Part shown: positions 11,076-57,634 of the stretch, piece after piece
How positions within the stretch are numbered: the stretch's first letter is position 1
Layout: every line of letters starts with the position of its first letter
NCBI GenBank assembly: GCA_903929485.1
Contig: CAIYUY010000097.1
Location: 3,088 to 67,087, forward strand
Source of the DNA: an uncultured Desulfuromonadales bacterium
GTDB taxonomy: Bacteria > Desulfobacterota > Desulfuromonadia > Geobacterales > CAIOGM01
Length of the DNA: 64,000 nucleotides
Direction: 5' to 3'
Notes under the pieces: generated by a model
Told to the model about the DNA's origin: nothing
Database searches by the model: none
The model's input: the letters and a program-made list of their open reading frames with translations, nothing else
Made by a program: the position numbers and the translations under genes

Positions 11076-11132
11076 CAGAAAAAGCATCAGCACCCGGTGA
11101 ATCGAAAAACCCGCGGTTTCAGGAGTTGTCAT

Positions 11133-12212
11133 ATGGCAAGCATCGACGCACTGTTCAAGATGATGAAAGAACAAGGGGCTTCCGACCTTCACCTCTCCAC
11201 CAGCGCTCCCCCCATCTTCCGTCTCCACGGTGACCTGGAGCCGCTGGATTTTAAGGCGCTCTCTCATGAAGAGCTCAAGGGAATCATCTATGAAATCCTG
11301 AGCGAAAAGCAGATCAAAGAGTTCGAGGAGCGCCACGACCTGGACTTCGCCTATTCGGTGCCCGGTCTTGCCAGATTCCGGGGAAACATCCTTTTGCAGC
11401 ATAAGGGGATCGCCGCGGTCTTTCGGATCATCCCCAGCAAGATTCTCTCCGTGGAAGAGCTGGGGCTGCCGGAAGGGGTGACGAAATTCACTCAGCTCAA
11501 GAAGGGTCTGGTTCTCGTAACCGGACCCACCGGGTCGGGCAAATCCACCACCCTGGCCGCCATGATCGATCACATCAACAACACCCGGAAGGATCATATC
11601 CTTACCCTGGAAGATCCTCTGGAGTTCATTCATGAGAACAAGCAATCCCTTTTTAATCAGCGGCAGATCGGCGAACATACGGACAGCTTCACCGCAGCCC
11701 TCCGCGCCGCCCTTCGCGAGGATCCTGATGTTATTCTCGTGGGGGAGATGCGTGACCTGGAGACCATCAGTTTGGCCATGACCGCCGCCGAAACCGGCCA
11801 TCTGGTCTTCGGCACCCTCCATACCAACTCCGCCGCCAAGACCATCGATCGAATTATTGACGCCTTCCCCCGGGACGGCCAGGCGCAGATACGAACCATG
11901 CTGGCCGAATCCCTGAAGGGGGTCATCTGTCAGCAGCTCCTCAAGACCACCGACGGCAAAGGGCGGGTGGCGGCCCTGGAAATCCTGGTGGGAACACCAG
12001 CCATCTCCAACCTGATCCGGGAAGGAAAAACCTTCCAGATTCCATCCATCATCCAGACCGCCCGCAGGGACGGGATGCAGCTCATGGACCAGCACCTACT
12101 GGATCTCCTCAAGACCAAACAGGTCACCGCCGAGGAAGCCCATCGCTGCGCCGGCGACAAAAAACAGTTTGAGCAGTTTCTCCCCCCGGCTGCTCGCCCG
12201 ACCGCGCCATGA
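11133..12212 (+). CDS. pilT: Type IV pilus retraction ATPase PilT
   Basis: GPTGSGKSTTLAAMID, DPDVILVGEMRD, TGHLVFGTLHTNSA and AALEILV; aggag RBS 8 nt before the ATG at 11133. Confidence 0.92.
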   Translation: MASIDALFKMMKEQGASDLHLSTSAPPIFRLHGDLEPLDFKALSHEELKGIIYEILSEKQIKEFEERHDLDFAYSVPGLARFRGNILLQHKGIAAVFRIIPSKILSVEELGLPEGVTKFTQLKKGLVLVTGPTGSGKSTTLAAMIDHINNTRKDHILTLEDPLEFIHENKQSLFNQRQIGEHTDSFTAALRAALREDPDVILVGEMRDLETISLAMTAAETGHLVFGTLHTNSAAKTIDRIIDAFPRDGQAQIRTMLAESLKGVICQQLLKTTDGKGRVAALEILVGTPAISNLIREGKTFQIPSIIQTARRDGMQLMDQHLLDLLKTKQVTAEEAHRCAGDKKQFEQFLPPAARPTAP

Positions 12213-12241
12213 TAAAATCCACGTTTTTCACCCGGCGCTGA

Positions 12242-14071: not shown

Positions 14072-14105
14072 GGCGAATGGCTAAAACAGTGGGGAGGAGA
14101 ATAAA

Positions 14106-14231
14106 ATGAACAGTAGCATATTCCCGTCGGCGCTGATAACAGTTATTACTCTCATATTGGCGGCAATGCCAAGGATCAATAAGCTGCTGGGTGATAACGC
14201 CCGGCAGACCAACCAAGGAGGCGACAGATGA
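14106..14231 (+). CDS. Putative 41-aa single-TM peptide, translationally coupled to the nitroreductase gene
   Basis: ggggaggag RBS 7-8 nt upstream of the ATG. The product is [41 protein letters not shown], and its TGA overlaps the next ATG (ATGA). It is too short for the ORF track. Confidence 0.35.
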
Positions 14232-14788
14232 ATACCCTGGAAGCAATCAAAACCAGAAGAAGTGTGCGAAAATTTTCCGGCAAGCCGGTGGAGCCGGAAA
14301 AACTCCAGGCAGTGCTGGAGGCGGCGGCCCAAGCCCCCTCATGGGCAAACATGCAGTGTTGGCGGTTCATTGTGGTGACGGACCAGGCGGTGAAGGAGCG
14401 GATCAGCGACCTCTCCTACGTGGAGGCTTTTTTCGCCACCCGCGGCTACAGTAGCAATCCCGCCCAGAAGGCCCTGGCCGAGGCGCCGGTGGTGGTTGTC
14501 GCTTGCGCCGACCCCACCGAGTCGGGGACCTTGCGGGGGCAGCAGTACTATCTGACTGACATGGGAATCGCCGCGGAAAACCTGATGCTGGCGGCCCACG
14601 CCCAGGGCTTGGGGAGTGTCTTCGTGGGGGTCTTCCAGGAAGAGGAGCTGGGAGAGTTGCTGGAAATACCGCCGGATATCCGGATCGTGGGACTCTTCCC
14701 CCTGGGTTACCCCCTGGGAGAGGTGAAAGGTGGAGGGGCACGCAAGCCGCTGAAGCAGATCGTGCATTACGAGAAATGGAAGGGGTGA
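14228..14788 (+). CDS. Nitroreductase family protein
   Basis: The opening [11 protein letters not shown], then [11 protein letters not shown] and a typical fold length of 186 aa. Confidence 0.85.
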
Positions 14789-16731
14789 CAATAATTGGTG
14801 ATTCACAATTCGTAATTCGTAAGCGCTTTATAATTGCCGGGACGGCCGGGCATATTGATCATGGCAAGACCAGCTTGGTGAAAGCCCTCACCGGCATGGA
14901 TACGGATCGGCTCAAGGAAGAGAAGGAGCGGGGAATCACCATCGAACTGGGTTTTGCTCACCTGGAGCTCACCGACGGCGTCAGGGTGGGGATCGTGGAT
15001 GTGCCGGGTCACGAGCGGTTCGTCCGGACCATGGTGGCAGGGGTCGCGGGGATCGATCTGGTCATGTTCGTCATCGCCGCCGATGAAGGAATCATGCCTC
15101 AGACCCGGGAACATCTGGAAATCTGCCGGCTCCTGGGGGTCAAGCAAGGGATCGTGCTTCTGACCAAGCAGGACCTGGTGGATCGGGAGTGGCTGAAGCT
15201 GGTGACCGAAGAGGTTCGGGAATACCTTTCGGGGAGTTTTCTCCATGGGGCGCCCATCATCCCCTTCTCCAGTCGCACCGGAGAAGGGCTCCCGGCGCTG
15301 CGCCGGGAACTGGGGCGCCTCGCGGGGGAAACGCCTCCCCGGGAGCCGAGCGGTCCTTTCCGTCTCCCGGTGGATCGCAGCTTCACCCTGCCGGGGTTCG
15401 GCGCCGTTGTCACCGGCACCCTCCGGTCAGGAGTCATCCGGGTGGGAGATTCGGTGGAACTCCTCCCCTCGGGAAAAACCGGACGAGTTCGCGGCATCCA
15501 GCTCCATGGCAAACGAAAAGAGGAAGGAGTCGCCGGCCAGCGCGTGGCGGTGAACCTGCAGGGGATCGATCACCACGAGATTCGGAGAGGAGAGACCGTG
15601 ACCTCCCCCGGGACTTTCAGGACTACCCGCACTGTCGACATCCGTCTGGAGCTTCTCCCCTCTGCCCGGAGCCTCAGACATCGCGGCATGGTGCAGTTTC
15701 TCAGCGGCACGGCCGAGAGTTCGGCCCAGGTGATCTTTCCCCACCGGGATTCGCTCCGTCCGGGCGAGTCAGCCCCTGCTCAACTCAGGTTGCGAACTCC
15801 TCTCTGTCTTCTCCCCGGTGATCCCTTTGTGCTCCGCAGCCACTCCCCTGCCGCAACCATGGGGGGGGGGCGACTTCTGGACCCCGCGCCGGCCAGGGGA
15901 CGCCGCGTAAGCGAGGAGGCGCTGGAACTCCTGGCGGCCCTGGACGGCGGTGACGCCGATACGAAAATCAGGTTATTGGTTCGGGAAAGCCGATTAAGCG
16001 GCATCTCCGCTGAAAAAATAACCCTGCGAAGCGGCTGCGGCAACACGGTGATGGAGGCGGCTCTCGGCCGTCTTCTCTCACGGGGGGAGGTGGTGCGGGG
16101 GGTGAAAGATCCCGGCATATTCTTGACCCGGGAGGCATTCCGCAGCCTGGAGGATGAATTGATGGCGGCTCTCACCTCTTTCCTGACGGATAATCCGCTT
16201 CGGGACGGGATGGGGAAAGAAGAGCTGAAGGGAAAAATTCCCAAGCGGAGTGATCCCCGGTTTTTCGGAGCGCTCTTGGCCTCGCTGGTGAGGGAGGGGA
16301 GACTCCTTCTCCAGCGGGAGCTGGTGAAACCGGGAACAGCCGTCCCTCCCCATCTATCGGGGGTGGGGAGCGGGGGGGGGGACGCAGTGGAAGCTGAGCT
16401 GCGCCAGGGTGGGGTGGAACCTCCCACGCTCAAAGAGTTGAGCCAACGGCTAATGACTCCGGAAAAACAGCTGCGGGAGCAGCTTGCCCGCCTTACCCGG
16501 GAGGGGCAGGCCATCAGAGTCACCGGCGACCTCTACTACGCCCCGGAACCGCTGCTCAGACTCCGGGGGCAGCTCCAACTCTACCTGGAAGAGCGGGGAG
16601 AGATCACCCCGGCTGAGTTCCGTGATCTGAGCGGTCTTTCCCGCAAGTTCATGATTCCGCTGCTGGAATACTTCGACAGCATCAAACTCACCATCAGAAT
16701 CGGAGATATTCGGAGATTAAGAAAAGGATAA
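14776..16731 (+). CDS. selB: Selenocysteine-specific translation elongation factor SelB
   Basis: [19 protein letters not shown] and TKQD G-motifs, followed by a long winged-helix C-terminal extension. The gene overlaps the nitroreductase end by 13 nt. Confidence 0.9.
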
Positions 16732-16740
16732 TGGTGAATC

Positions 16741-17889
16741 ATGTCAACCCTTCACTCCATACTCATCATCGATAATGACGTTACCACCCGATCGGCAATG
16801 GATCATCTCATCGCGCGATGCCGCCGTCCCATAGAGTTAAGCGCCGCCGCCGTTACCCGTCGCGAAGGACTGAAACAGCTGGAGTCGGACACGCCGCCTC
16901 AGGTGGTTATCCTGGAGGTACAGTCAATAGCCCAAGGGGTCAGGGATGTTTCCGCCATTCTCACCGCCAATTCCCAGACGATGATCATGGCTACGTCAGG
17001 GGAAAAGCGTCCCGACTGGATACGTACCCTCATTCGGGCCGGTGCAAGCGAATATCTCACCACGCCGATCTCCGCCGATGGACTGGAAGAGACCTTGGAG
17101 CGGGCGGCTCTGATGCTCGAACAAAAAAATGGGGCGGAGGATGCAGGGGGGAAGGTGATTACCGTCTACAACCCGGCGGGTGGGATGGGAACTACAACCA
17201 TCGCCGTGAACCTGGCCGCGGCCCTGGCCATGGAGGGGAGGATGACGGCGCTGGTCGACCTCAACCCGTTCAGCAGCGATGTCTCTGCATTTCTGAACCT
17301 CAATCCGGCGGAAACTCTGAACGCTCTCCGGGAGACGGGACGAAGATTGAGCGCCGGTCGTCTCCTGGACCTCATGACCCGTCACGGTTCCGGAGTGCAG
17401 GTACTCTGCGGGCCGGAAGAACCAGGTGTCATCGTGGAGTTCGCCCCGGATCAGATCCTGAGCCTTATCACCCTCATGCGAGGTCAGTTCGGCGTAACGG
17501 TCATCGACGCCGGCGGTGAGCTGTCGGAGCGTAACCTGGAGATCTTCGACGGATCAGACGTCATTTTGTACCCGCTACTCCTCACCCTGCCGGCCCTCAA
17601 CAACGCCAAGCGATACATGAAAGCTCTGAATCAACAAGGCTTCGATCCTGGCCGGATCAAGGTGGTGGTCAACAGGTATTTATCCCTGGATAGTATTAAT
17701 GTCTCCCATGCGGAGGAGTTCCTGGATAAAGAGATCTTCCATTTAATTCCCAATTCCTATCTGGAACTTAAAAAATCCATCTATAAAGGCGCACCCTTGG
17801 TGACCGACTACCCCCGCTCGCCCGTTACCAAGGCGCTGATCGAGTTGGCTGAGCGGCTCTTGAAGGAGATGTCCGTAGGATCACACTAA
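16741..17889 (+). CDS. TadZ/CpaE-like protein: pseudo-receiver domain plus a deviant MinD/ParA ATPase domain
   Basis: REC-like N-terminus whose acceptor position reads VVILEV (Glu rather than Asp). The P-loop reads NPAGGMGTTTIAVNLA, so the KGGxGK[ST] lysines are absent. Confidence 0.7.
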   Translation: MSTLHSILIIDNDVTTRSAMDHLIARCRRPIELSAAAVTRREGLKQLESDTPPQVVILEVQSIAQGVRDVSAILTANSQTMIMATSGEKRPDWIRTLIRAGASEYLTTPISADGLEETLERAALMLEQKNGAEDAGGKVITVYNPAGGMGTTTIAVNLAAALAMEGRMTALVDLNPFSSDVSAFLNLNPAETLNALRETGRRLSAGRLLDLMTRHGSGVQVLCGPEEPGVIVEFAPDQILSLITLMRGQFGVTVIDAGGELSERNLEIFDGSDVILYPLLLTLPALNNAKRYMKALNQQGFDPGRIKVVVNRYLSLDSINVSHAEEFLDKEIFHLIPNSYLELKKSIYKGAPLVTDYPRSPVTKALIELAERLLKEMSVGSH

Positions 17890-47964: not shown

Positions 47965-48138
47965 GGCATGTATCCTATCTTGCTGAAATATCTAAACTAT
48001 GATTAAGCTATCATGATCTAAAAACGGAGTCAAAGAGAATCGTTTTTTAGGTCAGAAAAAAACGGGGCGGTATGTTGTGATGCCTATAAGCTCCTCCACC
48101 CAGCGGGCCTGCGCGCCGCAGGGCGCTTCTGCGCACAG

Positions 48139-48358
48139 GCGGGGGGAGGCCTGTCCTGAGCGAAGTCGAAGGGTTAGGAGGGGGAGGTAGAGGAGGCGCA
48201 AAAAGTCCTCTTCAGCGTCTTTGCGAGTGAAATAAAAATTGAGGACTTCCGTGAGCAGGAATAGTAGCGGAGTCTACCTTACTCCAGGAGACGGCGATTT
48301 AGCAACGGGGCTGCACAAACTCGTAGAAAAAAGGCGTAATTCCGTAGAAAAAACGAGG
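48139..48358 (+). repeat. Upstream block shared with 52910-53264 (cassette A copy)
   Basis: gcggggggaggcctgtc.tgagcgaagtcgaagggtt.ggagg... and ...gaggacttccg.gagca.gaatagtag.ggagtctac.ttactcc.gg.gacggcgattt.gcaacg.ggctgc.caa.ctcgtagaaaaaag.cgtaatt.cgtaga.aaaacg align between the two loci. Confidence 0.85.
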
Positions 48359-48397
48359 CCACAATTTATGCTACCTCTGTAGAATACCGTAAAGACT

Positions 48398-48470
48398 GTG
48401 AATGGTGAATAGTGAATGGTGAAAAGAACCTTGAACATAGAACAGGTTTGGACGTGAATGGTGAAAAGTG
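48398..48470. repeat. gtgaatggtgaa repeat cluster
   Basis: gtgaatggtgaatagtgaatggtgaaaag ... gtgaatggtgaaaagtg. The same word family occurs at 21084-21195 and 35747-35763. Confidence 0.75.
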
Positions 48471-48490
48471 CACGGCAACCGTAGGGGCGC

Positions 48491-48568
48491 GGCTTGCTGC
48501 GCCCGATGCTCTGGTCGTTGCTAATAACAAAACCGGGCGGACCAAGGCCCGCCCCTACGATGAGGGCG
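48491..48568. repeat. REP-like compound palindrome (gtaggggc family)
   Basis: gtaggggcgcggcttgctgcgccc ... gggcggaccaaggcccgcccctac. Confidence 0.7.
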
Positions 48569-48704
48569 CATAAACCGGTAGGTTGGCAGATGTACGAGGG
48601 AACATCGCCGATTCCGCTTCGCTTGAACCGGTCTGCTATGCAGAAAATTGTTCCCAATGAATGACACAACCACATTTACTAACGAGGAAAAGAAGGAGTC
48701 ACCT

Positions 48705-51206
48705 ATGAACAAATTAGTGTCATTGGTAGTTGTCGGACTGTTATTGTGTTGTTCAATGGGGAGCGCAAACGCGAAATCGATTCTCTATACTGATTGGGGC
48801 TCATATTTTAATATAGGTCACGGCGGAACAACAAATTTTGTCAAGGCTTTAAATGCTGCTTCTGAAAACAATCTGGTAAGCACTACAAACTTATCAAACT
48901 ACACTCTGATGAATCAGTACGACGCATTAATGGTTGATGCGAGGAGTCCGGGATTATTATCTTCGACTGAAATAGCAAATATTAAAACGTATAAAGCAAC
49001 AGGAAGAAAAGTCCTCTTAATCGGTGATGCGTTCGGATTTATTGCAAATTTTAATAATCAACTGATGGGTATTGTCGGTGGCACACATGACGGAGATGAT
49101 TATACAGGTGGTGCAACAAAGGTCATCGACAATGTGTTAACCAAAGGTGTGGATACCATTTGGTTGCAGTTTGTTGGTCGTGTGACCGGGGGAACGCCGC
49201 TGTTCAGTGTAAAATTCGCGTCCTTGTGGGGCGCGAATGTCTTGACGTCGTTTGACGTTAACGTATTTGACGATCAATACGGGAATAAACAGTTCCAGAC
49301 AAATGTGGCCCAATGGCTTGCCGACTCCAGGCTTCCGGTATATATGGATACCACGGGGAATAGCCGCCAAACATCTCCCGGCCTCGTAACTCAACAGGTT
49401 GCATTGGTATTCAAAACAGGAGCCAACGGGCCGTTCACCATCGGCGCTCTCAAAGTGGGCTTGTATCTCTCAAATTCAATCGGCAGCGGCTCCTTTACGG
49501 TTAGCCTGCGTGCGGTGGACGGCTCGAACAATCCCAGCGGCGCCGATCTGGCTTCGGTGGTCGTGAATACCGGCGCCTTATCTCAAGGAAGCACCGTGAA
49601 GGAGGTCACGTCTCTTGGGGATTTGGAGAGCTATAGTCTGGAAGCTAACACCAACTACGCCTTGGTCGTAAGTAACGGGACTCCCGGCATAGCTGTTTCT
49701 ATCGGTAGCGGCACACCGTACCTTGATCCAACCTACGGGTTTTCCTTGGTGATTCCCTCCCTGCTGACAACCGACAACGGTGGCTCCTGGGTTCCCGCGT
49801 TTGGACCAAACGCCTTGATGATGTCCATCGGCCCCTCCACTAAACCCACGTCCGCCACAGCGCTCTCCGCCGCCCCCAATCCGGTCACGGTGGGAAGCTC
49901 CGTAACCTTCACCGCCAGGGTCACCCCTGTCGCGGCCACGGGTACGGTCACATTCAAGGAGGGGAGCACGACGCTTGGCGCCGGTGCCCTTTCCGGTGGG
50001 ATCGCCACACACGATACCACCTCGCTGACCGCAGGAGTGCACAGTATTACCGCCGTTTACGGAGGTGACGGCAGCTATCAGGGCTCTACCTCCAGCGTCT
50101 ATACCCAGACTATCAACAAGGCGAACAGTTCCATTACCCTGGTTTCCGGTCTTAATCCGTCTAACTCCGGCCAGAGTGTCACCTTCACCGCGACAGTTTC
50201 CCCGGCTGGGATCACCGGCGGTACGGTTACCTTCTACGACGGCACCACCGCCTTGGGAGTCGGGGCTCTGGTAAGCGGTACGGCCAGCTACAGTATCAGC
50301 TCCCTGAGCGGGGGGAGTCATGGCATCACTGCCGTCTATAGCGGCAACAGCAGTTACAATGGTTCCACCTCGGCGGCCCTTACTCAGACGGTAAACACGG
50401 TTGTCACCGTCGGAACCTCATCCGAGGGGCGGAGCTTCTCCGTTGACGGTACCACGTACACCTCCACCCAGACCTTTGTCATGTCGGCGGGGAGTAGCCA
50501 TACCCTGGCCGTAACTTCACCCCAGACAGGGGCGGCAGGAAGTAGATACTCATTTACCTCCTGGTCCGACAGCGGCGCACAGAGTCATAGTATCACTGTT
50601 CCAAGCTCGAACACCACCTACACCGCCGCCTTCGGCGCTCAGTATCAACTGACCACGGTGGTGAATCCATCGGTGAGCGGTTTTGTCCTGCCTATTACCG
50701 GAAGCTGGTACGGTGCGGGGAGCAGGGTGAACGTCTCCGTCACCCCCAATACGGGGAGCGCCTTTAGTTCATGGACCGGTCCGGTGGCCAATCCTAACAG
50801 CGCCGCCACTACTGTCACGATGACTGGCCCGCTTAGTGTCACCGCCAACCTGTCCGGCATTCCGGCGCTTACCTCCAAAGTAACCGGCAAGAGCGGGACT
50901 ATCGACAACCGTCTCTGGACCGTCACCCTGACCAACAGCGGCGCCGGAGCGGCCACCAACGTCAACATCACCGGCCTGATCATTACTCCGGGAACCGGCG
51001 TTACCTGCACACCCACGGTGAAGAGCAGCTTCCCGGTACCGGTGTCCGATGTGGCGCTTGGTGCGCCCCAAAGCGGAGTCGTCACCCTTGACTTCACCGG
51101 TTGCGCCGCCACCAACAAGTTCAATGTCCGTGTTGACTACGGCTATGGCGATTCCGGCGGCGGCTCTTACAGCAGGAGTGACAGTTTTTATAACATGATG
51201 AGGTAA
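48705..51206 (+). CDS. Large secreted multi-domain protein A: unknown head, 2 Ig-like repeats, and a conserved C-terminal module
   Basis: Signal peptide MNKLVSLVVVGLLLCCSMGSANA with an aagaaggag RBS. Ig-like repeats of the form VTFTA.V.P....G.VTF.DG...LG...L..G.A......L..G.H.ITAVY.G...Y.GS. InlB-B-repeat-like F.SW.GPVAN.NS..TTVTMTGP.SVTANL. The last about 270 aa are paralogous to 55227-56014. Confidence 0.85.
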   Translation: MNKLVSLVVVGLLLCCSMGSANAKSILYTDWGSYFNIGHGGTTNFVKALNAASENNLVSTTNLSNYTLMNQYDALMVDARSPGLLSSTEIANIKTYKATGRKVLLIGDAFGFIANFNNQLMGIVGGTHDGDDYTGGATKVIDNVLTKGVDTIWLQFVGRVTGGTPLFSVKFASLWGANVLTSFDVNVFDDQYGNKQFQTNVAQWLADSRLPVYMDTTGNSRQTSPGLVTQQVALVFKTGANGPFTIGALKVGLYLSNSIGSGSFTVSLRAVDGSNNPSGADLASVVVNTGALSQGSTVKEVTSLGDLESYSLEANTNYALVVSNGTPGIAVSIGSGTPYLDPTYGFSLVIPSLLTTDNGGSWVPAFGPNALMMSIGPSTKPTSATALSAAPNPVTVGSSVTFTARVTPVAATGTVTFKEGSTTLGAGALSGGIATHDTTSLTAGVHSITAVYGGDGSYQGSTSSVYTQTINKANSSITLVSGLNPSNSGQSVTFTATVSPAGITGGTVTFYDGTTALGVGALVSGTASYSISSLSGGSHGITAVYSGNSSYNGSTSAALTQTVNTVVTVGTSSEGRSFSVDGTTYTSTQTFVMSAGSSHTLAVTSPQTGAAGSRYSFTSWSDSGAQSHSITVPSSNTTYTAAFGAQYQLTTVVNPSVSGFVLPITGSWYGAGSRVNVSVTPNTGSAFSSWTGPVANPNSAATTVTMTGPLSVTANLSGIPALTSKVTGKSGTIDNRLWTVTLTNSGAGAATNVNITGLIITPGTGVTCTPTVKSSFPVPVSDVALGAPQSGVVTLDFTGCAATNKFNVRVDYGYGDSGGGSYSRSDSFYNMMR

Positions 51207-51210
51207 TTCC

Positions 51211-51238
51211 GTAGGGGCATGGCGCGCCGTGCCCCTAC
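51211..51238 (+). promoter_or_regulatory. Intercistronic GC-rich palindrome 5 nt after the stop of protein A
   Basis: gtaggggcatggcg / cgccgtgcccctac. Confidence 0.6.
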
Positions 51239-51271
51239 AACATAACCAATATCACACAAGGAGATAGAATC

Positions 51272-51835
51272 ATGTTCAAACGAATCATCACGACCCTGGC
51301 CCTCACCACCCTTCTGGGGGCGACCGGAGTTCAGGCGTCAATTCTGGACGTCACCTCCAAGGATCTGGCCGGGACGCCGGGGAGCCGCGTGGGGTGGAGC
51401 TTTTCTCTCAATAATGACACACCCTTTGACCTTTATGTCCTGCGGGTCTACGCCGACGGCACGCTTTTTGGCGCCGACGGGGACAGCGCCCTGGGAACTT
51501 TCCGGGATGAGATCGCCTACACCACCGGTAATGATGGCATCGTGGTGGCTGCCGGTGATACTTATACCGGCAGCTTCCCCGCCAACGGCCTGGCCAGCTT
51601 CGCCATCAACAGCGGGGCGCCCTATCTGGCGTCGGTGAGCGGGAAGATTTACCTGGATTACGAACTGTATGACGTTAATGTGGACTTTCAGGGGGCGGGG
51701 GTGTTGACGGCCCAGTATCGGGGAGGGGATGCACTGGCCTCGGTGACCGCCGTTCCCGAACCATCCACGTACCTTCTTGTTTGTCTTGGAGTGGGGGGGC
51801 TGGCTCTGCTTCGGCGGCGGCAACGAAACCAATAG
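51272..51835 (+). CDS. Small PEP-CTERM-anchored protein A (187 aa)
   Basis: Signal peptide MFKRIITTLALTTLLGATGVQA. The C-terminus VPEPSTYLLVCLGVGGLALLRRRQRNQ has the PEP, TM helix and Arg cluster of an exosortase sorting signal. aaggag RBS. Confidence 0.88.
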   Translation: MFKRIITTLALTTLLGATGVQASILDVTSKDLAGTPGSRVGWSFSLNNDTPFDLYVLRVYADGTLFGADGDSALGTFRDEIAYTTGNDGIVVAAGDTYTGSFPANGLASFAINSGAPYLASVSGKIYLDYELYDVNVDFQGAGVLTAQYRGGDALASVTAVPEPSTYLLVCLGVGGLALLRRRQRNQ

Positions 51836-51941
51836 TTCGGGAAAAGCAGGGTGATTCTCGATAATAAACATACTACGATTCTGAATCCGGTTTTGTGGGG
51901 GCACCCCCGGCGCCTTCCCGCCGGGAAGGGTATTTTTTATG

Positions 51942-52243
51942 TCACCGTGCCAACCGGAGCGAGATATCCATCTTCTCGTGGAGAACCCGGATTATTTCCG
52001 GGCGCCCATCTTCAAGCCAACGAAAAACAATCAAGTGGCGGCTGATTTTATACGTCAGGCAACCCAGCTCAATACAGGATAAGTCACGGTTGCGGGTTTC
52101 GCGCCGGGTTATTTTTTCAAAGCAGGCAAAGAGACGTTCAGGTAAATAGCTTCCTGCTCTTTACTCCAACTCTTTTTGGTGTAGTGAGCCATCTCACGCA
52201 GGTCATGCAGCGCCGATTTCTTTATCTTGAACGGCAAACTCAC
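51942..52243 (-). pseudogene. parE: ParE-family toxin with a 1-nt frameshift near 52136
   Basis: Frame 1 reads VSLPFKIKKSALHDLREMAHYTKKSWSKEQEAIYLN and stops at 52111-52109. Frame 2 reads RLFACFEKITRRETRNRDLSCIELGCLTYKISRHLIVFRWLEDGRPEIIRVLHEKMD..*. Total length is 302 nt. Confidence 0.75.
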
Positions 52244-52485
52244 GGCAGGGGAGGTTCGTCTTCAATCCCCGCTATGAAATCTTCATAGGAACATTCCACC
52301 GACTCACTCTCCATTCCCAGGGCAATGGCCCGCTTGAGAGCCATTGCTTTCGCCTGATGCTCTTCCAGCAGCGTCAGTCCGGCGCGAATAACTTCGCTGC
52401 GAGAACAGAACCCAAAGTCACTGACTTGTGAGTCGACAAACGCCTCAAAATGAGGTCCCAACGTGACGCTGGCATTTCTGGACAT
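52240..52485 (-). CDS. parD: ParD-type (RHH) antitoxin
   Basis: MSRNASVTLGPHFEAFVDSQV.......SEVIRAGL.LLEE. GTGA overlap with the parE start. Confidence 0.8.
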   Translation of the reverse strand: MSRNASVTLGPHFEAFVDSQVSDFGFCSRSEVIRAGLTLLEEHQAKAMALKRAIALGMESESVECSYEDFIAGIEDEPPLP

Positions 52486-52687
52486 ACCTGCCTCCCCCCC
52501 GATGAGTAATACTTTGTAGTATAGATTGCCCCGATCGGATAGGCAAGCGGGGGTTTTTATCCCCGCCACAATAATTCAGATTGAATCTCAGCATTGTCCG
52601 GTTTGGTTTTTGCAGGTGGATTATAAGTCCCCCCGCCCCTCGCGGGTGACCATCGCACACACTTAACTCCGTGGGTGATATCGGCTA

Positions 52688-52888
52688 CACGGGATTGTCC
52701 TGGCCCCCCAAGACACAACGACTCTCACTTATGGCGCTCATCCGGCGACTCTGGGGCTGGGGCCGATCAACAACATCGCCAACCGCTCCATGGGGCTGAT
52801 GCTCCACGATACCCTGGCGTTTACTCCTGACGGGACCCCTTTGGGGATTCTGGATGCGCAGTGTTGGGCGCGAGACCCACGGCGTTAA
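52688..52888 (+). mobile_element. Internal 66-codon fragment of an IS4-family (Tn5-like DDE) transposase
   Basis: Reads HGIVLAPQDTTTLTYGAHPATLGLGPINNIANRSMGLMLHDTLAFTPDGTPLGILDAQCWARDP. This matches the region around the first catalytic Asp. No ends and no remainder of the gene are present. Confidence 0.65.
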
Positions 52889-52909
52889 GCGTGGGTAAAG
52901 ATCACCCCA

Positions 52910-53264
52910 GCGGGGGGAGGCCTGTCTTGAGCGAAGTCGAAGGGTTGGGAGGGGGGAGGCAGAGGAGGCGCAAATAAGTTCTCTTCAGAGTCTTTGCGAG
53001 GAACGAAGTGACGAAGATCTGCCTTTATTTTGCCAGCTGTCAGTTTTGAGATTGCTTCGCTTGCTTCGGCTACCCTTCGACTTTGCTCAGGGACCACGCG
53101 CAGCACAAGTCGCTCGCAATGACAGCATTTGCGAGTGTCTTTAGAATGGAGGACTTCCGGGAGCAAGAATAGTAGAGGAGTCTACTTTACTCCGGGTGAC
53201 GGCGATTTGGCAACGAGGCTGCGCAACCTCGTAGAAAAAAGTCGTAATTTCGTAGAGAAAACGG
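52910..53264 (+). repeat. Upstream block shared with 48139-48358 (cassette B copy), carrying a 135-bp nested insertion at 53001-53135
   Basis: Collinear with the A copy apart from the segment between two tttgcgag octamers (52993-53000 and 53128-53135). Confidence 0.8.
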
Positions 53265-53404
53265 TTCCAAATGCTGTGGTAACTATGTAAAATATGTTTC
53301 CATTGTTACCATGGAGTCATATTCATCAAAAGTCGTCGGCCATGCACCGGGTTTATGGTGCGTACCAACAACCTCATGCAGATCAACACTCCACGGAGGG
53401 CATC

Positions 53405-56014
53405 ATGAAGGGACTATCAAGGATCATCCCGGTTGGTTTACTGCTGATGGCGTTGTTTTCCGGTTCGGCGGGAGCCGCATCGTATTCGGGAGGCTCCGGA
53501 ACATCCGGCGATCCTTACCTGATCGCCGATCTGGTCGACCTGCAAGCGTTGCAGAGCGATAGCCAAACAACTACCTTCACCGGGAAATATTTCAAGCAGA
53601 CCGCCACTATCAACCTGAGCGCGATAGCGAATTGGGGAGGAATCGGTAATAATACCGGTTCCGAGCCGATGTTTGCGGGAAAGTACGATGGTGGCGGGTT
53701 TTCGGTCTCGAATATGACAATCAGTGAAGCAGGAGCCAGTGACAACCGTAAATGTGCAGGGCTTTTCAACTCCTTGGGGGCAGGCGCCGTGGTGAAGAAT
53801 TTGGCTGTGACGAGCGCTTCGGTAACCGCAAAAGGTGATGCGGCCAATCATGGCGTGCTGGCAGGTTATGCGACTTCGAGCACCATTACCAACAGCTACA
53901 CCACCGGCACCGTAACAACGACAACCGATACGGGCGGTGGCGATGGCGTGGGAGGTTTGGTCGGCTATGCAAATCGTTCAACGATAAGCTTTAGTTATTC
54001 GCTGGTCAGCGTAACCGGCACCCGCGTCGTTGGCGGACTGGTTGGAGTCAATTTTGGGGTGATCACTAACAGTTTCATGGCAGGCGCCGTAAGCGGTGGT
54101 TCGTTCAGGGGGATACTGGTCGGTGATCTGAGCACATATTCGGCAGTCAGTTATGTGCCTTATTCCGGGACAGGCGCAGCAAGGGCCAACGGTGCGGGCT
54201 CAGTCACCCCCGCGAAATTGAACAACAGCCCTTTAGTGGCTGCGGGTCTGTTCAAGGATTCAGCCAATTTTCTGACCACGGCAAGCCCCGCCTATTTTTC
54301 CCTGGATTGGGATTTTGTCAGAGTCTGGCAAATAAATCCGGCGGTCAATAACGGCTATCCGATCCTTCGGGCGCCAATCGGAGCGCCTGTCGCCCCCACC
54401 GCGATCACCACTGCCGCCACCACTATCACGGCTACCGGAGCGACCCTGAACGGCCAGGTCAACGACAACGGCGCCGCCACCACGGTTACCTTTGACTACG
54501 GTCTGACCACCGCCTATGGCGCCACTGTCGCGGCCACCACCAACGGCACGGTCAATGCGGAGTCAGGTTACAGCGCCGTCGCCAGGACCCTTACCGGCTT
54601 GACCTGCAATACCTCCTACCATTTCCGGGTTAACGGGGTTAACAGCGCCGGGACAACCAACGGCAGAGACGCTACCTTCTCCACCTCAGTCTGCCCCGCC
54701 CAGACCATCACCCTGGATCGGGCCGCCCCGGCCGGCGCCGTTTTCAATAGCAACTTCGATGTCAAGGCCCACGCCGGTTCCGGGCTTGACGTGACCGTCA
54801 CCACCGGCGGCGCCTGCTCGGGGAGCGGCCGCAGCAGCGGCAATCCGGGGAGTCCGGTCACCATCACCATGATCAGCGGCGCCGGCGACTGCACGGTCCA
54901 CTTTGATCAGGCCGGTAACAGCAGTTACAGCCCAGCCCCGCAGGTTAACAACACGACTACGGCGAGCAAGGGCTCCCAGAGCATCGTGGTCACCACCTCG
55001 GCTCCGGCTTTCGCGGCCTACGGCGCCACCTTCACCGTGGCGGCCTACGCCACCTCGGCCCTCCCCGTGACCTACAGCAGCGGCAGCCCCACGGTCTGTA
55101 CCAATGCGGGCGCCGACTTCACCATGATCGGCAGTATCGGCCCCTGCAAGGTCCAGTATGACGTTGCCGGCACCGCCAACTTCAACCCGGCCCCGCGGGT
55201 GGTGGAGAACAGTGCGGTCAGCGCCGTCAGTGTCACGATCCGGACAAGTCCGGACGGCCGTGCCTTCACGGTGGACGGCACGTATTACACCACGGCGCAG
55301 ACCTTTACCTGGACGCCGGTGAGCAGCCACACCATTGCGACCACGACGCCCCAGGTCGGGACTGCCGGCGTCCGCAACCCCTTCAGTTCCTGGTCCGACA
55401 GCAGGGCCATGAGCCATCTCATCACCGCCCCGGCCACGGGGAGCGCCACCTACACCGCAACTTTCGGCACTGAATACCAACTGACCACGACGGTAACCCC
55501 GGCGGCCAACGGCTATGTCCTGCCTCTCTCCGGGAACTGGTATGCTGCGGGGAGCATAGTCGTCGTCTCCGTCACCCCCAACACCGGGAACGCCTTCAGT
55601 TCCTGGAGCGGACCGGTGGCCAACGCGAACAGTTCCGCCACTACCGTCACCATGACCGGCCCGATCAGTGTCACCGCTAACCTCTCCGGCATCCCGGCAT
55701 TATCCACCAAGGTCACCGGCAAGAGCGGTGTCATCGACAACCGCCTCTGGACCATTACCCTGACCAACAGCGGCACCGGCACGGCCGGCAACGTGCGGGT
55801 TACCGGTTTCACCGTCACCTCCACAAGTTGCACCCCTGTCGTAAAGGGGAGCTTTCCCGTGCCGGTAGCCGATGTGGCGCCGGGCGCGCCCCAAACCGCG
55901 AACATGACCATTGACTTCACCGGTTGCGCCGCCACTGCCAAGTTCAACGTCCGGTTCGATTACAGTTACGGACCGTACACCGGCAGCGACAGCTTTTACA
56001 ACGTGATGCGGTAA
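53405..56014 (+). CDS. Large secreted multi-domain protein B: GLUG-motif head, FN3-like domain, 2 Cys-pair repeats, and a conserved C-terminal module
   Basis: Signal peptide MKGLSRIIPVGLLLMALFSGSAGA with a ggaggg RBS. GLUG-type repeats (GLF, GVLAGY, GGLVGY, GGLVGV). FN3-like segment ATLNGQVNDNGAATTVTFDYG.T.AYG. The C-terminal about 270 aa are paralogous to protein A. Confidence 0.85.
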   Translation: MKGLSRIIPVGLLLMALFSGSAGAASYSGGSGTSGDPYLIADLVDLQALQSDSQTTTFTGKYFKQTATINLSAIANWGGIGNNTGSEPMFAGKYDGGGFSVSNMTISEAGASDNRKCAGLFNSLGAGAVVKNLAVTSASVTAKGDAANHGVLAGYATSSTITNSYTTGTVTTTTDTGGGDGVGGLVGYANRSTISFSYSLVSVTGTRVVGGLVGVNFGVITNSFMAGAVSGGSFRGILVGDLSTYSAVSYVPYSGTGAARANGAGSVTPAKLNNSPLVAAGLFKDSANFLTTASPAYFSLDWDFVRVWQINPAVNNGYPILRAPIGAPVAPTAITTAATTITATGATLNGQVNDNGAATTVTFDYGLTTAYGATVAATTNGTVNAESGYSAVARTLTGLTCNTSYHFRVNGVNSAGTTNGRDATFSTSVCPAQTITLDRAAPAGAVFNSNFDVKAHAGSGLDVTVTTGGACSGSGRSSGNPGSPVTITMISGAGDCTVHFDQAGNSSYSPAPQVNNTTTASKGSQSIVVTTSAPAFAAYGATFTVAAYATSALPVTYSSGSPTVCTNAGADFTMIGSIGPCKVQYDVAGTANFNPAPRVVENSAVSAVSVTIRTSPDGRAFTVDGTYYTTAQTFTWTPVSSHTIATTTPQVGTAGVRNPFSSWSDSRAMSHLITAPATGSATYTATFGTEYQLTTTVTPAANGYVLPLSGNWYAAGSIVVVSVTPNTGNAFSSWSGPVANANSSATTVTMTGPISVTANLSGIPALSTKVTGKSGVIDNRLWTITLTNSGTGTAGNVRVTGFTVTSTSCTPVVKGSFPVPVADVAPGAPQTANMTIDFTGCAATAKFNVRFDYSYGPYTGSDSFYNVMR

Positions 56015-56021
56015 TACCGCT

Positions 56022-56043
56022 GGGGCACGGCGCGCCGTGCCCC
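56022..56043 (+). promoter_or_regulatory. Intercistronic GC-rich palindrome 8 nt after the stop of protein B
   Basis: ggggcacggcg / cgccgtgcccc, perfect. Confidence 0.6.
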
Positions 56044-56164: not shown

Positions 56165-56728
56165 ATGTTCAAACGAATCATCACCACCCTGGCCCTCACC
56201 CTCCTCCTGGGTGTAACAGCAGCCCAGGCGATGTCACTGAATGTCATCACCAAGGATCTGGCGGGGACGCCGGGGAGCCGCGTGGGGTGGAGCTTTTCTC
56301 TCAATAATGACACCCCCTTTGACCTTTATGTCCTGCGGGTCTACGCCGACGGCACGCTTTTTGGCGCCGACGGGAAGAGCGCCCTGGGAAACTTCCGGGA
56401 TGAGATCGCCTACACCTCCGGCAATAACGGCATCGTTGTGGAGTCGGGGGAGACCTACAACGGCAGTTTCCCCGTGGACGGCCTGGCCAGCTTCGCCATC
56501 AACAGCGGCGCTCCCTACCTGGCGTCGGTGACCGGGAAGATGTATCTGGATTACGAACTGTATGACGTTAATGTGGACTTTCAGGGGGCGGGGGTGTTGA
56601 CGGCCCAGTATCGGGGAGAGGAAGCTTTGGCTTCGGTGACCGCCGTTCCCGAACCCTCCACCTACGCTCTTGTCGGTCTCGGTCTGGGCGGCATGGCCCT
56701 GCTCCGCCGGCGGCAGCGGGACCAATGA
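56165..56728 (+). CDS. Small PEP-CTERM-anchored protein B (187 aa)
   Basis: Near-identical to 51272..51835. C-terminus VPEPSTYALVGLGLGGMALLRRRQRDQ. gaaggag RBS. Confidence 0.88.
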   Translation: MFKRIITTLALTLLLGVTAAQAMSLNVITKDLAGTPGSRVGWSFSLNNDTPFDLYVLRVYADGTLFGADGKSALGNFRDEIAYTSGNNGIVVESGETYNGSFPVDGLASFAINSGAPYLASVTGKMYLDYELYDVNVDFQGAGVLTAQYRGEEALASVTAVPEPSTYALVGLGLGGMALLRRRQRDQ

Positions 56729-56903: not shown

Positions 56904-57236
56904 ATGTCCAGATACGGAAGAGAAGAAATAATGTCCTCCAGTGAGGTCGTCAGGAACTTCGGGTCTGTCCTGAACAGTGTTTCTCAACATACTCGTGAAA
57001 AAGTCGCCATTGTTCGTAATAACAAACTGGAAGCTGTACTGCTTCCCGTGGATGTTTATGAGCAGATGGAACGTGTTTGCGAAATGGTAAAGAATGGTCA
57101 TGGTCTGTCGGGTGGTGTGGGAAACAGTGGCGCATTGCTGGAATTTCTTCGCACAAATCGACTGTCTGCCGCGGCCCGCATGTCGCCGAAAGAGATTGAG
57201 CAGCAAATTCTTGAAGAGCGGGAGGCATGGGAATGA
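56904..57236 (+). CDS. Phd/YefM-type antitoxin
   Basis: SSSEVVRNFGSVLNSV....EKVAIVRNNKLEAVLLPVDVYEQM. Confidence 0.75.
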   Translation: MSRYGREEIMSSSEVVRNFGSVLNSVSQHTREKVAIVRNNKLEAVLLPVDVYEQMERVCEMVKNGHGLSGGVGNSGALLEFLRTNRLSAAARMSPKEIEQQILEEREAWE

Positions 57237-57634
57237 TTCGCAAGGTTTATCTTGATTCCTGTATCGCGATCTATCTCGTCGAGGAGCATCCTCTGTATTG
57301 TGCGGGCATTGAAGAATCCTTGGCAAAATTGCAAGGTATTGTCTGCTATAGCCCTCTCACCGAACTGGAATGCCTTGTTCTGCCGCTTCGTGATAAGCGT
57401 GATGACCTTCTGGAGAAATTCAGACAGTTCTTCGGGATCAATGTCCCGCTGACCATGCCCGACGTGGTGTATCGGGAAGCGGCGAAATTAAGAGCGGAAT
57501 TCGGATTGAAAACACCGGACGCACTGCATCTGGCTACAGCGCGATTTCATGATTGTTCAGAGTTGTGGACCAACGATGATCGTTTGGCGGGTGTTGCGGA
57601 GGGTAGGGACTTAAACTTGGTTCGGCGGGGGTGA
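57233..57634 (+). CDS. vapC: PIN-domain VapC toxin (apparently intact)
   Basis: YLDSCIAIYL, E.L......, TPDALHLATA and NDDRL acidic or conserved positions. ATGA overlap with the antitoxin stop; an alternative ATG is at 57227. Confidence 0.8.
   Translation: MIRKVYLDSCIAIYLVEEHPLYCAGIEESLAKLQGIVCYSPLTELECLVLPLRDKRDDLLEKFRQFFGINVPLTMPDVVYREAAKLRAEFGLKTPDALHLATARFHDCSELWTNDDRLAGVAEGRDLNLVRRG

What the first reader, a model, noticed from the sequence alone, without database searches (positions are those of the whole stretch)
50398..51206. Conserved C-terminal module ending in an identical extreme tail (SDSFYN[MV]MR) in both large proteins
50398-51206 and 55227-56014 encode collinear modules of about 270 aa:
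- ..F.VDGT.YT..QTF......SH......PQ.G.AG.R..F.SWSDS.A.SH.IT.P....TYTA.FG..YQLTT.V.P
- ...SW.GPVAN.NS.ATTVTMTGP.SVTANLSGIPAL..KVTGKSG.IDNRLWT.TLTNSG.G.A.NV..TG
- ...DFTGCAAT.KFNV..DY.YG

Both proteins end at the same tail, DSFYN[MV]MR, immediately before the stop. A conserved very C-terminal peptide on otherwise divergent secreted proteins is the hallmark of a sorting or docking tag, as with T9SS CTDs, PEP-CTERM and GlyGly-CTERM. This tail matches none of those.
Basis: partly seen in the sequence, partly recalled or inferred. Interest (0 to 1): 0.6.

Follow-up and report, generated by a model that had tools for sequence, protein, structure and literature searches.

The report
Cargo end-domain paired with PEP-CTERM partner
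The shared tail is the last strand of a previously unnamed 115-residue end-domain that, across hundreds of soil and freshwater bacteria, sits at the very end of secreted proteins (often xylanases) whose genes are followed at once by a small PEP-CTERM protein gene, which suggests a two-part way of holding enzymes at the cell surface.

Summary
The two large secreted proteins share a 268-aa C-terminal module (66% identity) and both end in SDSFYN[MV]MR.

The module splits in two. The first part is two InlB-B-repeat-like domains. The last ~115 aa are a disulfide-containing beta-sandwich (AF2 pLDDT 95) with no Pfam, NCBIfam or PDB relative. The tail is this domain's final strand, not a free peptide tag.

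- An exhaustive HMM search finds 528 cluster representatives. In 147 of the best 150 the domain is at the extreme C-terminus, with consensus N-Q-[FY]-[RQ]-stop.
- Cargo is very diverse: GH10 xylanases with CBM4_9, PL4, Kelch, PKD and Ig repeats.
- In 59 of 66 genome loci, one or two such genes are followed immediately by a ~195-aa PEP-CTERM protein of a second unnamed family.
- Starting instead from that partner, 69 of 74 metagenome loci have the domain just upstream.
- Where the domain is internal and has lost its tail, a dockerin or a membrane helix follows and no partner gene is present.

Best reading (inferred, not shown): the domain docks cargo onto an exosortase-sorted anchor protein, much like dockerin and cohesin. 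I found no published description.

The parts
48705..51206 (+). Cargo gene 1 (833 aa from ATG 48705; the ORF is open from 48648)
   Evidence: The gene call of 833 aa on an identical metagenome contig fixes the start.
48705..48773 (+). Signal peptide of cargo 1 (MNKLVSLVVVGLLLCCSMGSANA|K)
   Evidence: Read from the translation; the cleavage site is inferred, not predicted by a tool.
49863..50387 (+). Two Big_3_5 Ig-like domains of cargo 1 (variable part, not shared with cargo 2)
   Evidence: Pfam PF16640, E = 9.6e-39, 2 stretches.
50403..50849 (+). Two InlB-B-repeat-like domains, forming the first two thirds of the shared module. The second is PF18998 at 50652-50849; the first is assigned by sequence pattern only.
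   Evidence: Pfam Flg_new_2, E = 4e-8, residues 669-734; alignment with cargo 2.
50850..51203 (+). Terminal beta-sandwich domain (CTD) of cargo 1: an unnamed family with two invariant Cys
   Evidence: AF2 pLDDT 95.5; 528 family representatives; no Pfam, NCBIfam or PDB match.
51177..51203 (+). Tail SDSFYNMMR: the last beta-strand of the CTD plus two terminal residues
   Evidence: DSSP strand at residues 110-120 of 122; family tail statistics.
51211..51238 (+). Conserved GC-rich hairpin just after the stop codon, with no U-tract
   Evidence: -26.2 kcal/mol, z = -5.4; conserved in copy 2; not listed as a terminator.
51272..51835 (+). Partner gene 1: a 187-aa protein with a signal peptide, a beta-sandwich core and a PEP-CTERM sorting signal (residues 160-184, nt 51749-51823)
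   Evidence: Pfam PF07589, E = 8.6e-7; TIGR02595; AF2 pLDDT 86; homologues lie downstream of CTD genes in 59/66 loci.
51913..51929 (+). Terminator-like stem followed by a T-run after partner gene 1, the likely end of the two-gene operon
53405..56014 (+). Cargo gene 2 (869 aa; GLUG-like/fn3-like N-terminal part unrelated to cargo 1)
   Evidence: exact protein found on 20 contigs.
55232..55681 (+). Two InlB-B-repeat-like domains of cargo 2 (PF18998 at 55484-55681)
   Evidence: Pfam Flg_new_2, E = 5.8e-10.
55682..56011 (+). CTD of cargo 2, ending in SDSFYNVMR (55985-56011)
   Evidence: 73% identical to the CTD of cargo 1.
56022..56043 (+). Second copy of the post-stop hairpin
56165..56728 (+). 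Partner gene 2 (187 aa from ATG 56165), 85% identical to partner 1

Best explanation
The last ~115 residues of both large proteins are a folded beta-sandwich domain that probably carries a disulfide bond. It belongs to a large, so far unnamed family found only at the extreme C-terminus of Sec-exported proteins. The shared tail is the domain's final strand.

The domain marks its carrier (the 'cargo') for pairing with a cognate small protein encoded immediately downstream. That partner has a signal peptide, its own beta-sandwich core and a PEP-CTERM sorting signal.

Proposed mechanism:
1. Both proteins are exported by Sec and fold in the periplasm.
2. The cargo's terminal domain binds the partner's core one-to-one.
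3. The partner is processed by exosortase and attached to the cell envelope or exopolysaccharide like other PEP-CTERM proteins.
4. The cargo (xylanases, lyases, adhesin-like repeat proteins) is thereby held at the cell surface.

Functionally this resembles dockerin-cohesin docking onto an anchored scaffoldin.

Shown here: the domain family, its terminal position, the conserved tail, and the reciprocal gene linkage and co-divergence with the partner.

Inferred: physical binding, the anchoring role, and the involvement of exosortase.
For: Family and position
- Exhaustive HMM search: 528 representatives at E <= 1e-3 and 253 at E <= 1e-10.
- The domain is terminal in 147 of the best 150.
- The tail is N-Q-[FYL]-[RQ]-stop.

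Fold
- AF2 pLDDT is 95.5, and the tail forms the last strand.
- C57 and C89 are invariant.

Cargo
- Cargo types are diverse and extracellular: GH10 with CBM_4_9, PL4, PKD, Kelch, Big_3_5.

Forward linkage
- 52/66 GTDB loci have the partner gene starting 10-40 nt after the stop codon.
- 7 more have two tandem cargo genes followed by one partner.

Reverse linkage
- Starting from the partner, 69/74 metagenome loci have the domain just upstream.

Partner
- 111/116 full-length partners carry a PEP-CTERM-like tail.

Co-divergence
- Mantel r = 0.705 over 101 pairs, against a permutation maximum of 0.15.
- Cassettes are inherited as units: L012 and L037 share 81% (domain) and 68% (partner) identity, while two cassettes in one MAG share only 47% and 27%.

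No third gene
- No other gene is conserved near the pair.

Exceptions
- The tail-less internal copy in P0095 is followed by a Dockerin_1 domain.
- In L058 a tail-less copy is followed by a TIG domain and a membrane helix with RRR, and no partner gene is present.
- L057 has a degenerate tail and no partner.
Against: - No direct evidence of binding was obtained. A complex prediction could not be run.
- Gene adjacency and co-divergence also fit other kinds of functional coupling, and the Mantel correlation is confounded by shared phylogeny.
- Fold matches of both proteins are generic beta-sandwiches (TM 0.3-0.55). Neither resembles dockerin or cohesin in sequence.
- Many large proteins carry their own PEP-CTERM signal, so it is unclear why an adaptor would be needed.
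- No exosortase gene was seen in the window among the ORFs scanned. Its presence in the carrier genomes was not tested.
- The informative exceptions are single cases.
Confidence: 0.55

Rival explanations
1. Export signal. The terminal domain is recognised by an outer-membrane translocation route, as the T9SS CTD is. The PEP-CTERM partner is a co-exported escort or a component of that route rather than an anchor.
For: - The domain is an always-terminal folded beta-sandwich on very diverse secreted cargo, which is the T9SS CTD pattern.
- The fixed free C-terminus could be a recognition feature.
Against: - No conserved translocon or protease gene accompanies the cassette.
- No T9SS CTD model matches.
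- One partner per one or two cargo genes, with old diverged paralogous cassettes in a single genome, fits a stoichiometric pair better than a shared machine.
- The exceptions replace the tail and partner with anchoring or docking devices, not with export signals.
Confidence: 0.2
2. Glycan binding. The terminal domain is a lectin- or CBM-like module that binds the cell's own exopolysaccharide, or glycans on the partner. The partner is simply a matrix protein expressed alongside.
For: - Many carriers are CAZymes with C-terminal accessory modules.
- The fold is an Ig-like or CBM-like sandwich.
- PEP-CTERM proteins are associated with exopolysaccharide and are proposed to be glycosylated (PMC1569441).
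Against: - There is no sequence match to any CBM family in Pfam.
- The domain also occurs on non-CAZyme cargo.
- A glycan-binding module has no need to be strictly terminal with a fixed end, nor to co-diverge with one particular neighbouring gene.
Confidence: 0.12
3. Covalent coupling. Exosortase cleaves the partner's PEP-CTERM signal and transfers the partner onto a nucleophile of the cargo's terminal domain, as pilin-specific sortases join subunits. The result would be a covalent heterodimer.
For: - Exosortase is proposed to act as a transpeptidase with an unknown acceptor (PMC1569441).
- Lys18 of the domain is highly conserved, at 86%.
- Genetic coupling between cargo and partner is tight.
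Against: - Lys18 is replaced by Arg in 7% of members, which argues against a role as nucleophile.
- The product would still lack an anchor.
- Nothing here tests the chemistry.
Confidence: 0.06
4. Null. The identical tail reflects only the recent duplication of a cassette in this genome and has no function of its own.
For: - The two copies belong to a duplicated segment that also includes the intergenic hairpin and the next gene.
- Between the paralogues the tail is no better conserved than other stretches.
Against: - The tail motif and the exact protein end are conserved in representatives that are less than 50% identical to each other, from several phyla.
- Copies that have lost the tail have also lost the partner.
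Confidence: 0.03

Closest known systems
Dockerin-cohesin docking onto anchored scaffoldins (cellulosomes of Clostridia)
   Same: - A C-terminal module on diverse secreted enzymes, including GH10 xylanases.
- A separate protein carries the cell-surface sorting signal.
- The arrangement is modular and cargo is interchangeable.
- One family member (P0095) has a real Dockerin_1 domain in place of the tail.
   Different: - There is no sequence or convincing fold relationship.
- The module here is a 115-aa beta-sandwich, not a Ca-binding F-hand pair.
- The partner is a single small domain encoded next to each cargo gene, not a multi-cohesin scaffold.
- The hosts are diderm bacteria, and the anchor signal is PEP-CTERM rather than SLH or LPXTG.
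T9SS C-terminal domains (Por_Secre_tail TIGR04183/PF18962; type B TIGR04131) of Bacteroidota
   Same: - An always-terminal Ig-like beta-sandwich of about 80-115 aa on very diverse secreted cargo, many of them glycoside hydrolases.
- The last strand is conserved.
   Different: - No HMM match.
- Hosts are mainly Acidobacteriota, plus some Proteobacteria and others.
- The domain is paired with a neighbouring PEP-CTERM gene, which T9SS cargo genes are not.
PEP-CTERM/exosortase sorting (Haft 2006, PMC1569441)
   Same: The partner proteins are ordinary PEP-CTERM substrates, with a signal peptide, a PEP motif, a TM helix and a basic cluster.
   Different: - The cargo proteins lack any PEP-CTERM signal or TM helix.
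- The link to the system is indirect, through a partner gene.
- I found no description of this pairing.
Flocculation PEP-CTERM protein PepA (NF033554) and NF038129 / FxDxF PEP-CTERM families
   Same: These are small PEP-CTERM proteins with a beta-rich core. They give sub-threshold matches to the partner.
   Different: - Scores are far below the curated cut-offs (at best 44 bits against 80).
- Most of each match lies in the sorting signal.

Membership tests
T9SS CTD (type A TIGR04183/PF18962, type B TIGR04131) | Match to the family HMMs | tested here: not met
   No hit at E <= 0.1-1 for the window proteins, for 10 family members or for the 49 aligned domains.
T9SS CTD (type A TIGR04183/PF18962, type B TIGR04131) | C-terminal Ig-like beta-sandwich on secreted cargo | tested here: met
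   AF2 model; terminal position. This is a resemblance in architecture only.
T9SS CTD (type A TIGR04183/PF18962, type B TIGR04131) | Host encodes a T9SS (PorK/L/M/N, SprA, PorU/V) | not tested
   Hosts are mostly Acidobacteriota and Proteobacteria. Whole genomes were not scanned.
PEP-CTERM sorting signal (TIGR02595 / PF07589) | PEP motif, TM helix and basic cluster at the C-terminus of the large proteins | tested here: not met
   No hit on the large proteins. The end of each protein is a beta-strand, not a helix.
PEP-CTERM sorting signal (TIGR02595 / PF07589) | The same signal at the C-terminus of the small downstream proteins | tested here: met
   PF07589 at 29.2 and 29.8 bits against a cut-off of 20.7; TIGR02595 above its cut-off; 111/116 homologues carry such a tail.
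GlyGly-CTERM / MYXO-CTERM / other TM-type CTERM signals | Signature motif followed by a TM helix at the C-terminus of the large proteins | tested here: not met
   No NCBIfam hit on the large proteins and no terminal hydrophobic helix.
Dockerin (PF00404) / cohesin (PF00963) | Duplicated Ca-binding dockerin motif in the cargo; cohesin domain in the partner | tested here: not met
   No Pfam hits. Cohesin structures match the partner model only at TM about 0.27.
Divergent InlB B-repeat (Flg_new_2, PF18998) | HMM match above the gathering score | tested here: met
33.6 and 39.5 bits against a cut-off of 23.6, for the repeat just upstream of the terminal domain.
DUF11 / CARDB-type Ig-like repeats (TIGR01451, PF01345) | HMM match for the terminal domain | tested here: inconclusive
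   7 of 49 members give sub-threshold TIGR01451 hits (best E = 1e-3). They share the T-[LV]-x-N-x-G strand motif only.
floc_PepA (NF033554) / NF038129 PEP-CTERM families (for the partner) | Score above NCBIfam's curated cut-off | tested here: not met
   Best scores are 44.1 against 80 and 38.9 against 65.

The most novel reading that the evidence does not exclude
This may be a widespread, undescribed two-component surface-display system of diderm soil and freshwater bacteria. A new terminal docking domain (ending N-Q-F-R) on otherwise unanchored secreted enzymes and adhesins would bind a cognate small PEP-CTERM protein, and exosortase would then fix that protein to the envelope or matrix. This would give a function to a large class of small 'hypothetical' PEP-CTERM proteins. 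It would also explain how Acidobacteriota keep xylanases and other CAZymes cell-bound. In effect it would be a Gram-negative counterpart of cohesin-dockerin, possibly with orthogonal pairs within one genome.
Probability: 0.45. Interest if true: 0.8.

Novelty: new variant of a known kind. Interest (0 to 1): 0.72.

Why it matters
- What most PEP-CTERM proteins do, and how exosortase substrates relate to other secreted proteins, is still open nearly twenty years after the system was described (PMC1569441; PMC12188702).
- This cassette ties a defined set of non-PEP-CTERM cargo, including bona fide plant-polymer-degrading enzymes of abundant soil Acidobacteriota, to a specific PEP-CTERM partner.
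- That yields a concrete, testable hypothesis: binding, followed by anchoring.
- It yields two new domain families to name.
- It offers culturable test organisms: the Solibacter usitatus protein in UniRef, and Pelomonas parva and P. candidula.
- If the pairs are specific and orthogonal, they could also serve as surface-display parts for Gram-negative bacteria.

Tried and rejected
Searches and predictions that failed or were unavailable
- A word-indexed protein search with the window's last 122 aa alone found nothing. The exhaustive HMM search was needed.
The 66 genome loci are therefore biased towards members with TIDFTGC or GAACTPV.
So was a partner alignment built from loci.

Ideas considered and rejected
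- The partner and the terminal domain share a W-x-[FI]-T-L-T-N strand motif, but profile-profile comparison shows no homology (probability 2%).
- The terminal domain does not belong to the T9SS CTD, PEP-CTERM, GlyGly-CTERM or dockerin families (see membership tests).
- Lys18 as an isopeptide or transpeptidation nucleophile is unlikely, because Arg replaces it in 7% of members.
- A conserved third gene (translocon, protease or exosortase) next to the cassette does not exist.
- The post-stop hairpin is not an intrinsic terminator, because it has no U-tract.

Side checks that led nowhere
- The organism of the window could not be named. It is a freshwater-type metagenome bin, NCBI GCA_903944945.1.
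- The ORF fragment at 52700-52885, which looked like a transposase remnant on reading, has no Pfam hit.
Full report
**1. The observation**

Two long ORFs on the + strand, 48648..51206 and 53294..56014, encode proteins with clear signal peptides. The real starts are probably ATG 48705 and ATG 53405. Those starts give the 833- and 869-aa products called on identical public contigs.

BLASTP aligns the last 268 residues at 66% identity (E = 4e-108), whereas the N-terminal 580-650 residues are unrelated. Both proteins end in SDSFYN[MV]MR followed by the stop codon.

At DNA level the duplicated unit does not stop at the stop codon. It continues through a conserved GC hairpin and a complete downstream gene. 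The two downstream genes (51272..51835 and 56165..56728) encode 187-aa proteins that are 85% identical.

**2. Anatomy of the shared module**

Pfam finds a divergent InlB B-repeat (PF18998) in the middle of the module in both proteins. The stretch before it has the same repeat pattern by eye. The last ~120 residues match nothing:
- nothing in Pfam;
- nothing in NCBIfam;
- no PDB sequence, either alone or as a 49-sequence profile.

AlphaFold2 with a family alignment folds the last 122 residues into a compact beta-sandwich with mean pLDDT 95.5 and pTM 0.87. The last strand spans residues 110-120 of 122. The tail SDSFYNMMR is therefore the final strand plus two terminal residues, not a free peptide.

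Foldseek against the PDB gives only generic Ig-like sandwiches such as the gamma-adaptin ear and TRAP-beta, at TM 0.4-0.55.

**3. The terminal domain is a large, always-terminal family**

A word-indexed search with the window sequence alone found nothing. An exhaustive HMM search over 1.84 billion cluster representatives did better: 528 proteins at E <= 1e-3 and 253 at E <= 1e-10.

I re-aligned the best 150 locally. In 147 of them the domain runs to the protein's C-terminus.

Over those 147, the last four positions are:

| Position | Residue | Count |
|---|---|---|
| -4 | N | 129 |
| -3 | Q | 105 |
| -2 | F/Y/L | 116 |
| -1 | R or Q | 129 |

The consensus is ...ARFT..I.FSANGGA.TGSKTLYNQFR-stop. 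The window's YNMMR is a divergent version of it.

Two cysteines are invariant, and G20, R25, W27, N33, P59, P66 and F86 are nearly so. Per-column information shows that the tail is about as conserved as other core positions, not uniquely so.

The carriers have very different N-terminal architectures:
- Kelch and DUF5122 propellers;
- glucodextranase-B, DUF11, Big_3_5 and PKD domains;
- PL4 domains;
- repeatedly, GH10 xylanase with CBM_4_9 modules.

A pattern scan of one genome per GTDB species returned 66 loci. Most are Acidobacteriota (Bryobacterales, Terriglobia, Acidobacteriaceae, Solibacter). The rest include Methylomonas, two Pelomonas isolates, an alphaproteobacterial bin, Dormiibacterota, Eremiobacterota and Thermoanaerobaculales. 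In about 58 of the 66, the reading frame stops exactly after the tail.

**4. The partner gene**

Each window copy is followed by a small protein with a signal peptide and a PEP-CTERM sorting signal. PF07589 and TIGR02595 both score above their cut-offs.

I built an HMM from the non-signal core of the window protein and iterated it on all ORFs of the 66 loci.
- In 52 loci a homologous ~190-205-aa gene starts 10-40 nt after the stop codon of the domain-bearing gene, on the same strand.
- In 7 more loci (L010, L018, L031, L041, L042, L049, L059) two tandem domain-bearing genes are followed by one partner gene.
- The few loci without a partner are truncated, frameshifted, or the exceptions described in section 5.

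The reverse test started from a partner motif (GSTVGWGF) in metagenome contigs and returned 78 loci. Of the 74 with enough upstream sequence, 69 have the terminal domain ending 85-283 nt before the partner core.

Further properties of the partner family:
- Among 116 full-length partner homologues, 111 have a PEP-CTERM-like end.
- The partner core has no Pfam family.
- Its NCBIfam matches are all sub-threshold, for example floc_PepA at 44 bits against a cut-off of 80.
- Its AF2 model (pLDDT 86) is a signal helix, a beta-sandwich and a terminal TM helix.
- PDB fold matches are weak: PapD-like chaperones, PsaA, MSP domains and cohesin, at TM 0.3-0.45.
- The domain and the partner are not homologous to each other.
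- No third gene is conserved around the pair.

Examples in long contigs confirm the layout:
- a contig encoding the partner that UniRef assigns to Solibacter usitatus (P0227) has GH10 with CBM_4_9 (785 aa) followed by the partner;
- a relative of the window's lineage has Big_3_5 with Flg_new_2 (725 aa) followed by the partner.

**5. Co-divergence and informative exceptions**

Over 101 cargo-partner pairs, pairwise distances of the two families correlate with Mantel r = 0.705, against a maximum of 0.15 in 999 permutations. Their mean divergence is equal, at 0.565 and 0.574. Shared phylogeny contributes to this correlation, so it shows co-inheritance as a unit rather than proving contact.

Two cassettes in one Solibacteraceae bin (L007 and L012) are only 47% (domain) and 27% (partner) identical. 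By contrast, L012 has a close counterpart in another genome, L037, at 81% and 68%. Paralogous cassettes are therefore old and travel as pairs.

The rare non-terminal copies are telling.
- In P0095 the domain has lost the tail and is followed by a Dockerin_1 domain (E = 2.3e-10).
- In L058 a GH10-CBM_4_9 protein has a tail-less copy followed by a TIG domain and a hydrophobic helix with RRR, and no partner gene follows.
- L057 has a degenerate tail and no partner.

Where tail and partner are missing, another docking or anchoring device takes their place. These are single cases, but all three agree.

**6. Interpretation**

Established here:
- a new terminal domain family;
- a fixed C-terminal end;
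- a second new family of small PEP-CTERM proteins;
- a tight reciprocal two-gene linkage, independent of cargo type and of genomic neighbourhood.

The most economical mechanism is that the terminal domain docks the cargo onto its partner, and that the partner, as an exosortase substrate, provides attachment to the envelope or exopolysaccharide. The two invariant cysteines fit folding in the periplasm. The enzyme cargo fits surface display. The one-partner-per-operon arrangement fits a stoichiometric complex.

Binding, anchoring and exosortase dependence are all inferred. I put this reading at about 0.55.

Alternatives:
- an export signal with the partner as escort (0.2);
- a glycan-binding module (0.12);
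- covalent joining by exosortase (0.06), weakened because the conserved Lys18 is Arg in 7% of members;
- mere paralogy (0.03), contradicted by the family-wide data.

**7. Comparison with known systems and novelty**

The terminal domain is not a member of any of these families: T9SS CTD, PEP-CTERM, GlyGly-CTERM, dockerin. The models were tested and not met. It probably works most like a dockerin, and in architecture it looks most like a T9SS CTD.

Annotations from a newer Pfam release, precomputed for the homologues, also show nothing on either domain. The CTD-bearing hits carry no Pfam family apart from PF18998 or PF00331 on a few. Of the 120 partner hits listed, all carry either PF07589 or nothing, except one with PF27847.

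Five full-text searches and two papers on the exosortase system turned up no description of this pairing. That does not exclude a description outside the searchable library.

I rate it a new variant of a known kind: a C-terminal docking or sorting module combined with a sorted anchor protein.

**8. Limits**

- The genome loci were found with two peptide patterns and are biased towards one part of the family.
- Gene calls in the loci are ORF-based.
- Signal peptides were judged by eye or by a crude regular expression.
- No exosortase gene was found among the window ORFs scanned.
- No complex model could be computed.

Noticed in passing
window 51211-51238 and 56022-56043: A strong GC hairpin (GGGGCAYGGCGC/GCGCCGTGCCCC; -26 kcal/mol, z = -5.4) sits 5-10 nt after the stop codon of both large genes and is conserved between the copies. 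It has no U-tract. It may stabilise the upstream transcript or tune the cargo-to-partner ratio. The acidobacterial cassettes have only 10-40 nt between the genes, which leaves no room for it.
   Followed up: partly
window 48001-56000 (composition): The shared module plus partner gene is richer in G+C than the N-terminal parts of the large genes. In one search the values are 0.588 and 0.631 for the former against 0.509 and 0.530 for the latter. This suggests the cassette was recombined onto unrelated N-terminal regions.
   Followed up: no
window 52240-52569 (-), 56904-57236 (+), 57227-57634 (+): A lone ParD-type antitoxin gene lies between the two cassettes. A Phd/YefM antitoxin and PIN toxin pair lies directly after the second partner gene. 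The cassettes thus sit among mobile-type small genes.
   Followed up: partly
window 52700-52888 (+): A short ORF fragment (..MGLMLHDTLAFTPDGTPLGILDAQCWARDP) looked like a transposase N-terminal remnant on reading, but it has no Pfam hit.
   Followed up: partly
P0291 (partner homologue): This partner homologue ends in PVPELDAGDGMGALTLLLGSLGLTFERRRK instead of a PEP motif. It carries a precomputed Pfam label, PF27847.1, which is absent from the local Pfam copy. It may be a variant sorting signal.
   Followed up: partly
L010, L018, L031, L041, L042, L049, L059: These operons have two tandem cargo genes of ~820-870 aa, each ending in the terminal domain, followed by a single partner gene. The two of these cargo proteins scanned have few or no Pfam hits: L010 matches only Flg_new_2, and a similar-sized cargo in L043 matches nothing.
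   Followed up: partly
P0060, P0079, P0098, P0107, P0110, P0120, P0123, P0134: A subgroup of the terminal-domain family ends in ..L[TM]GV.Q rather than NQFR.
   Followed up: no
L002 (Methylomonas sp. TEB, complete genome NZ_CP180476): In this cultured strain both the domain-bearing ORF and the partner ORF appear to be broken by frameshifts. The cassette seems to be decaying.
   Followed up: no
window 9447-17889 and 14776-16731: This region holds MshE-like and T2SS-E-type ATPase genes, an ABC exporter, a SelB selenocysteine elongation factor and a response-regulator/ParA-like gene. Many PAS histidine kinases and a GGDEF protein lie elsewhere in the window. No exosortase was seen.
   Followed up: no
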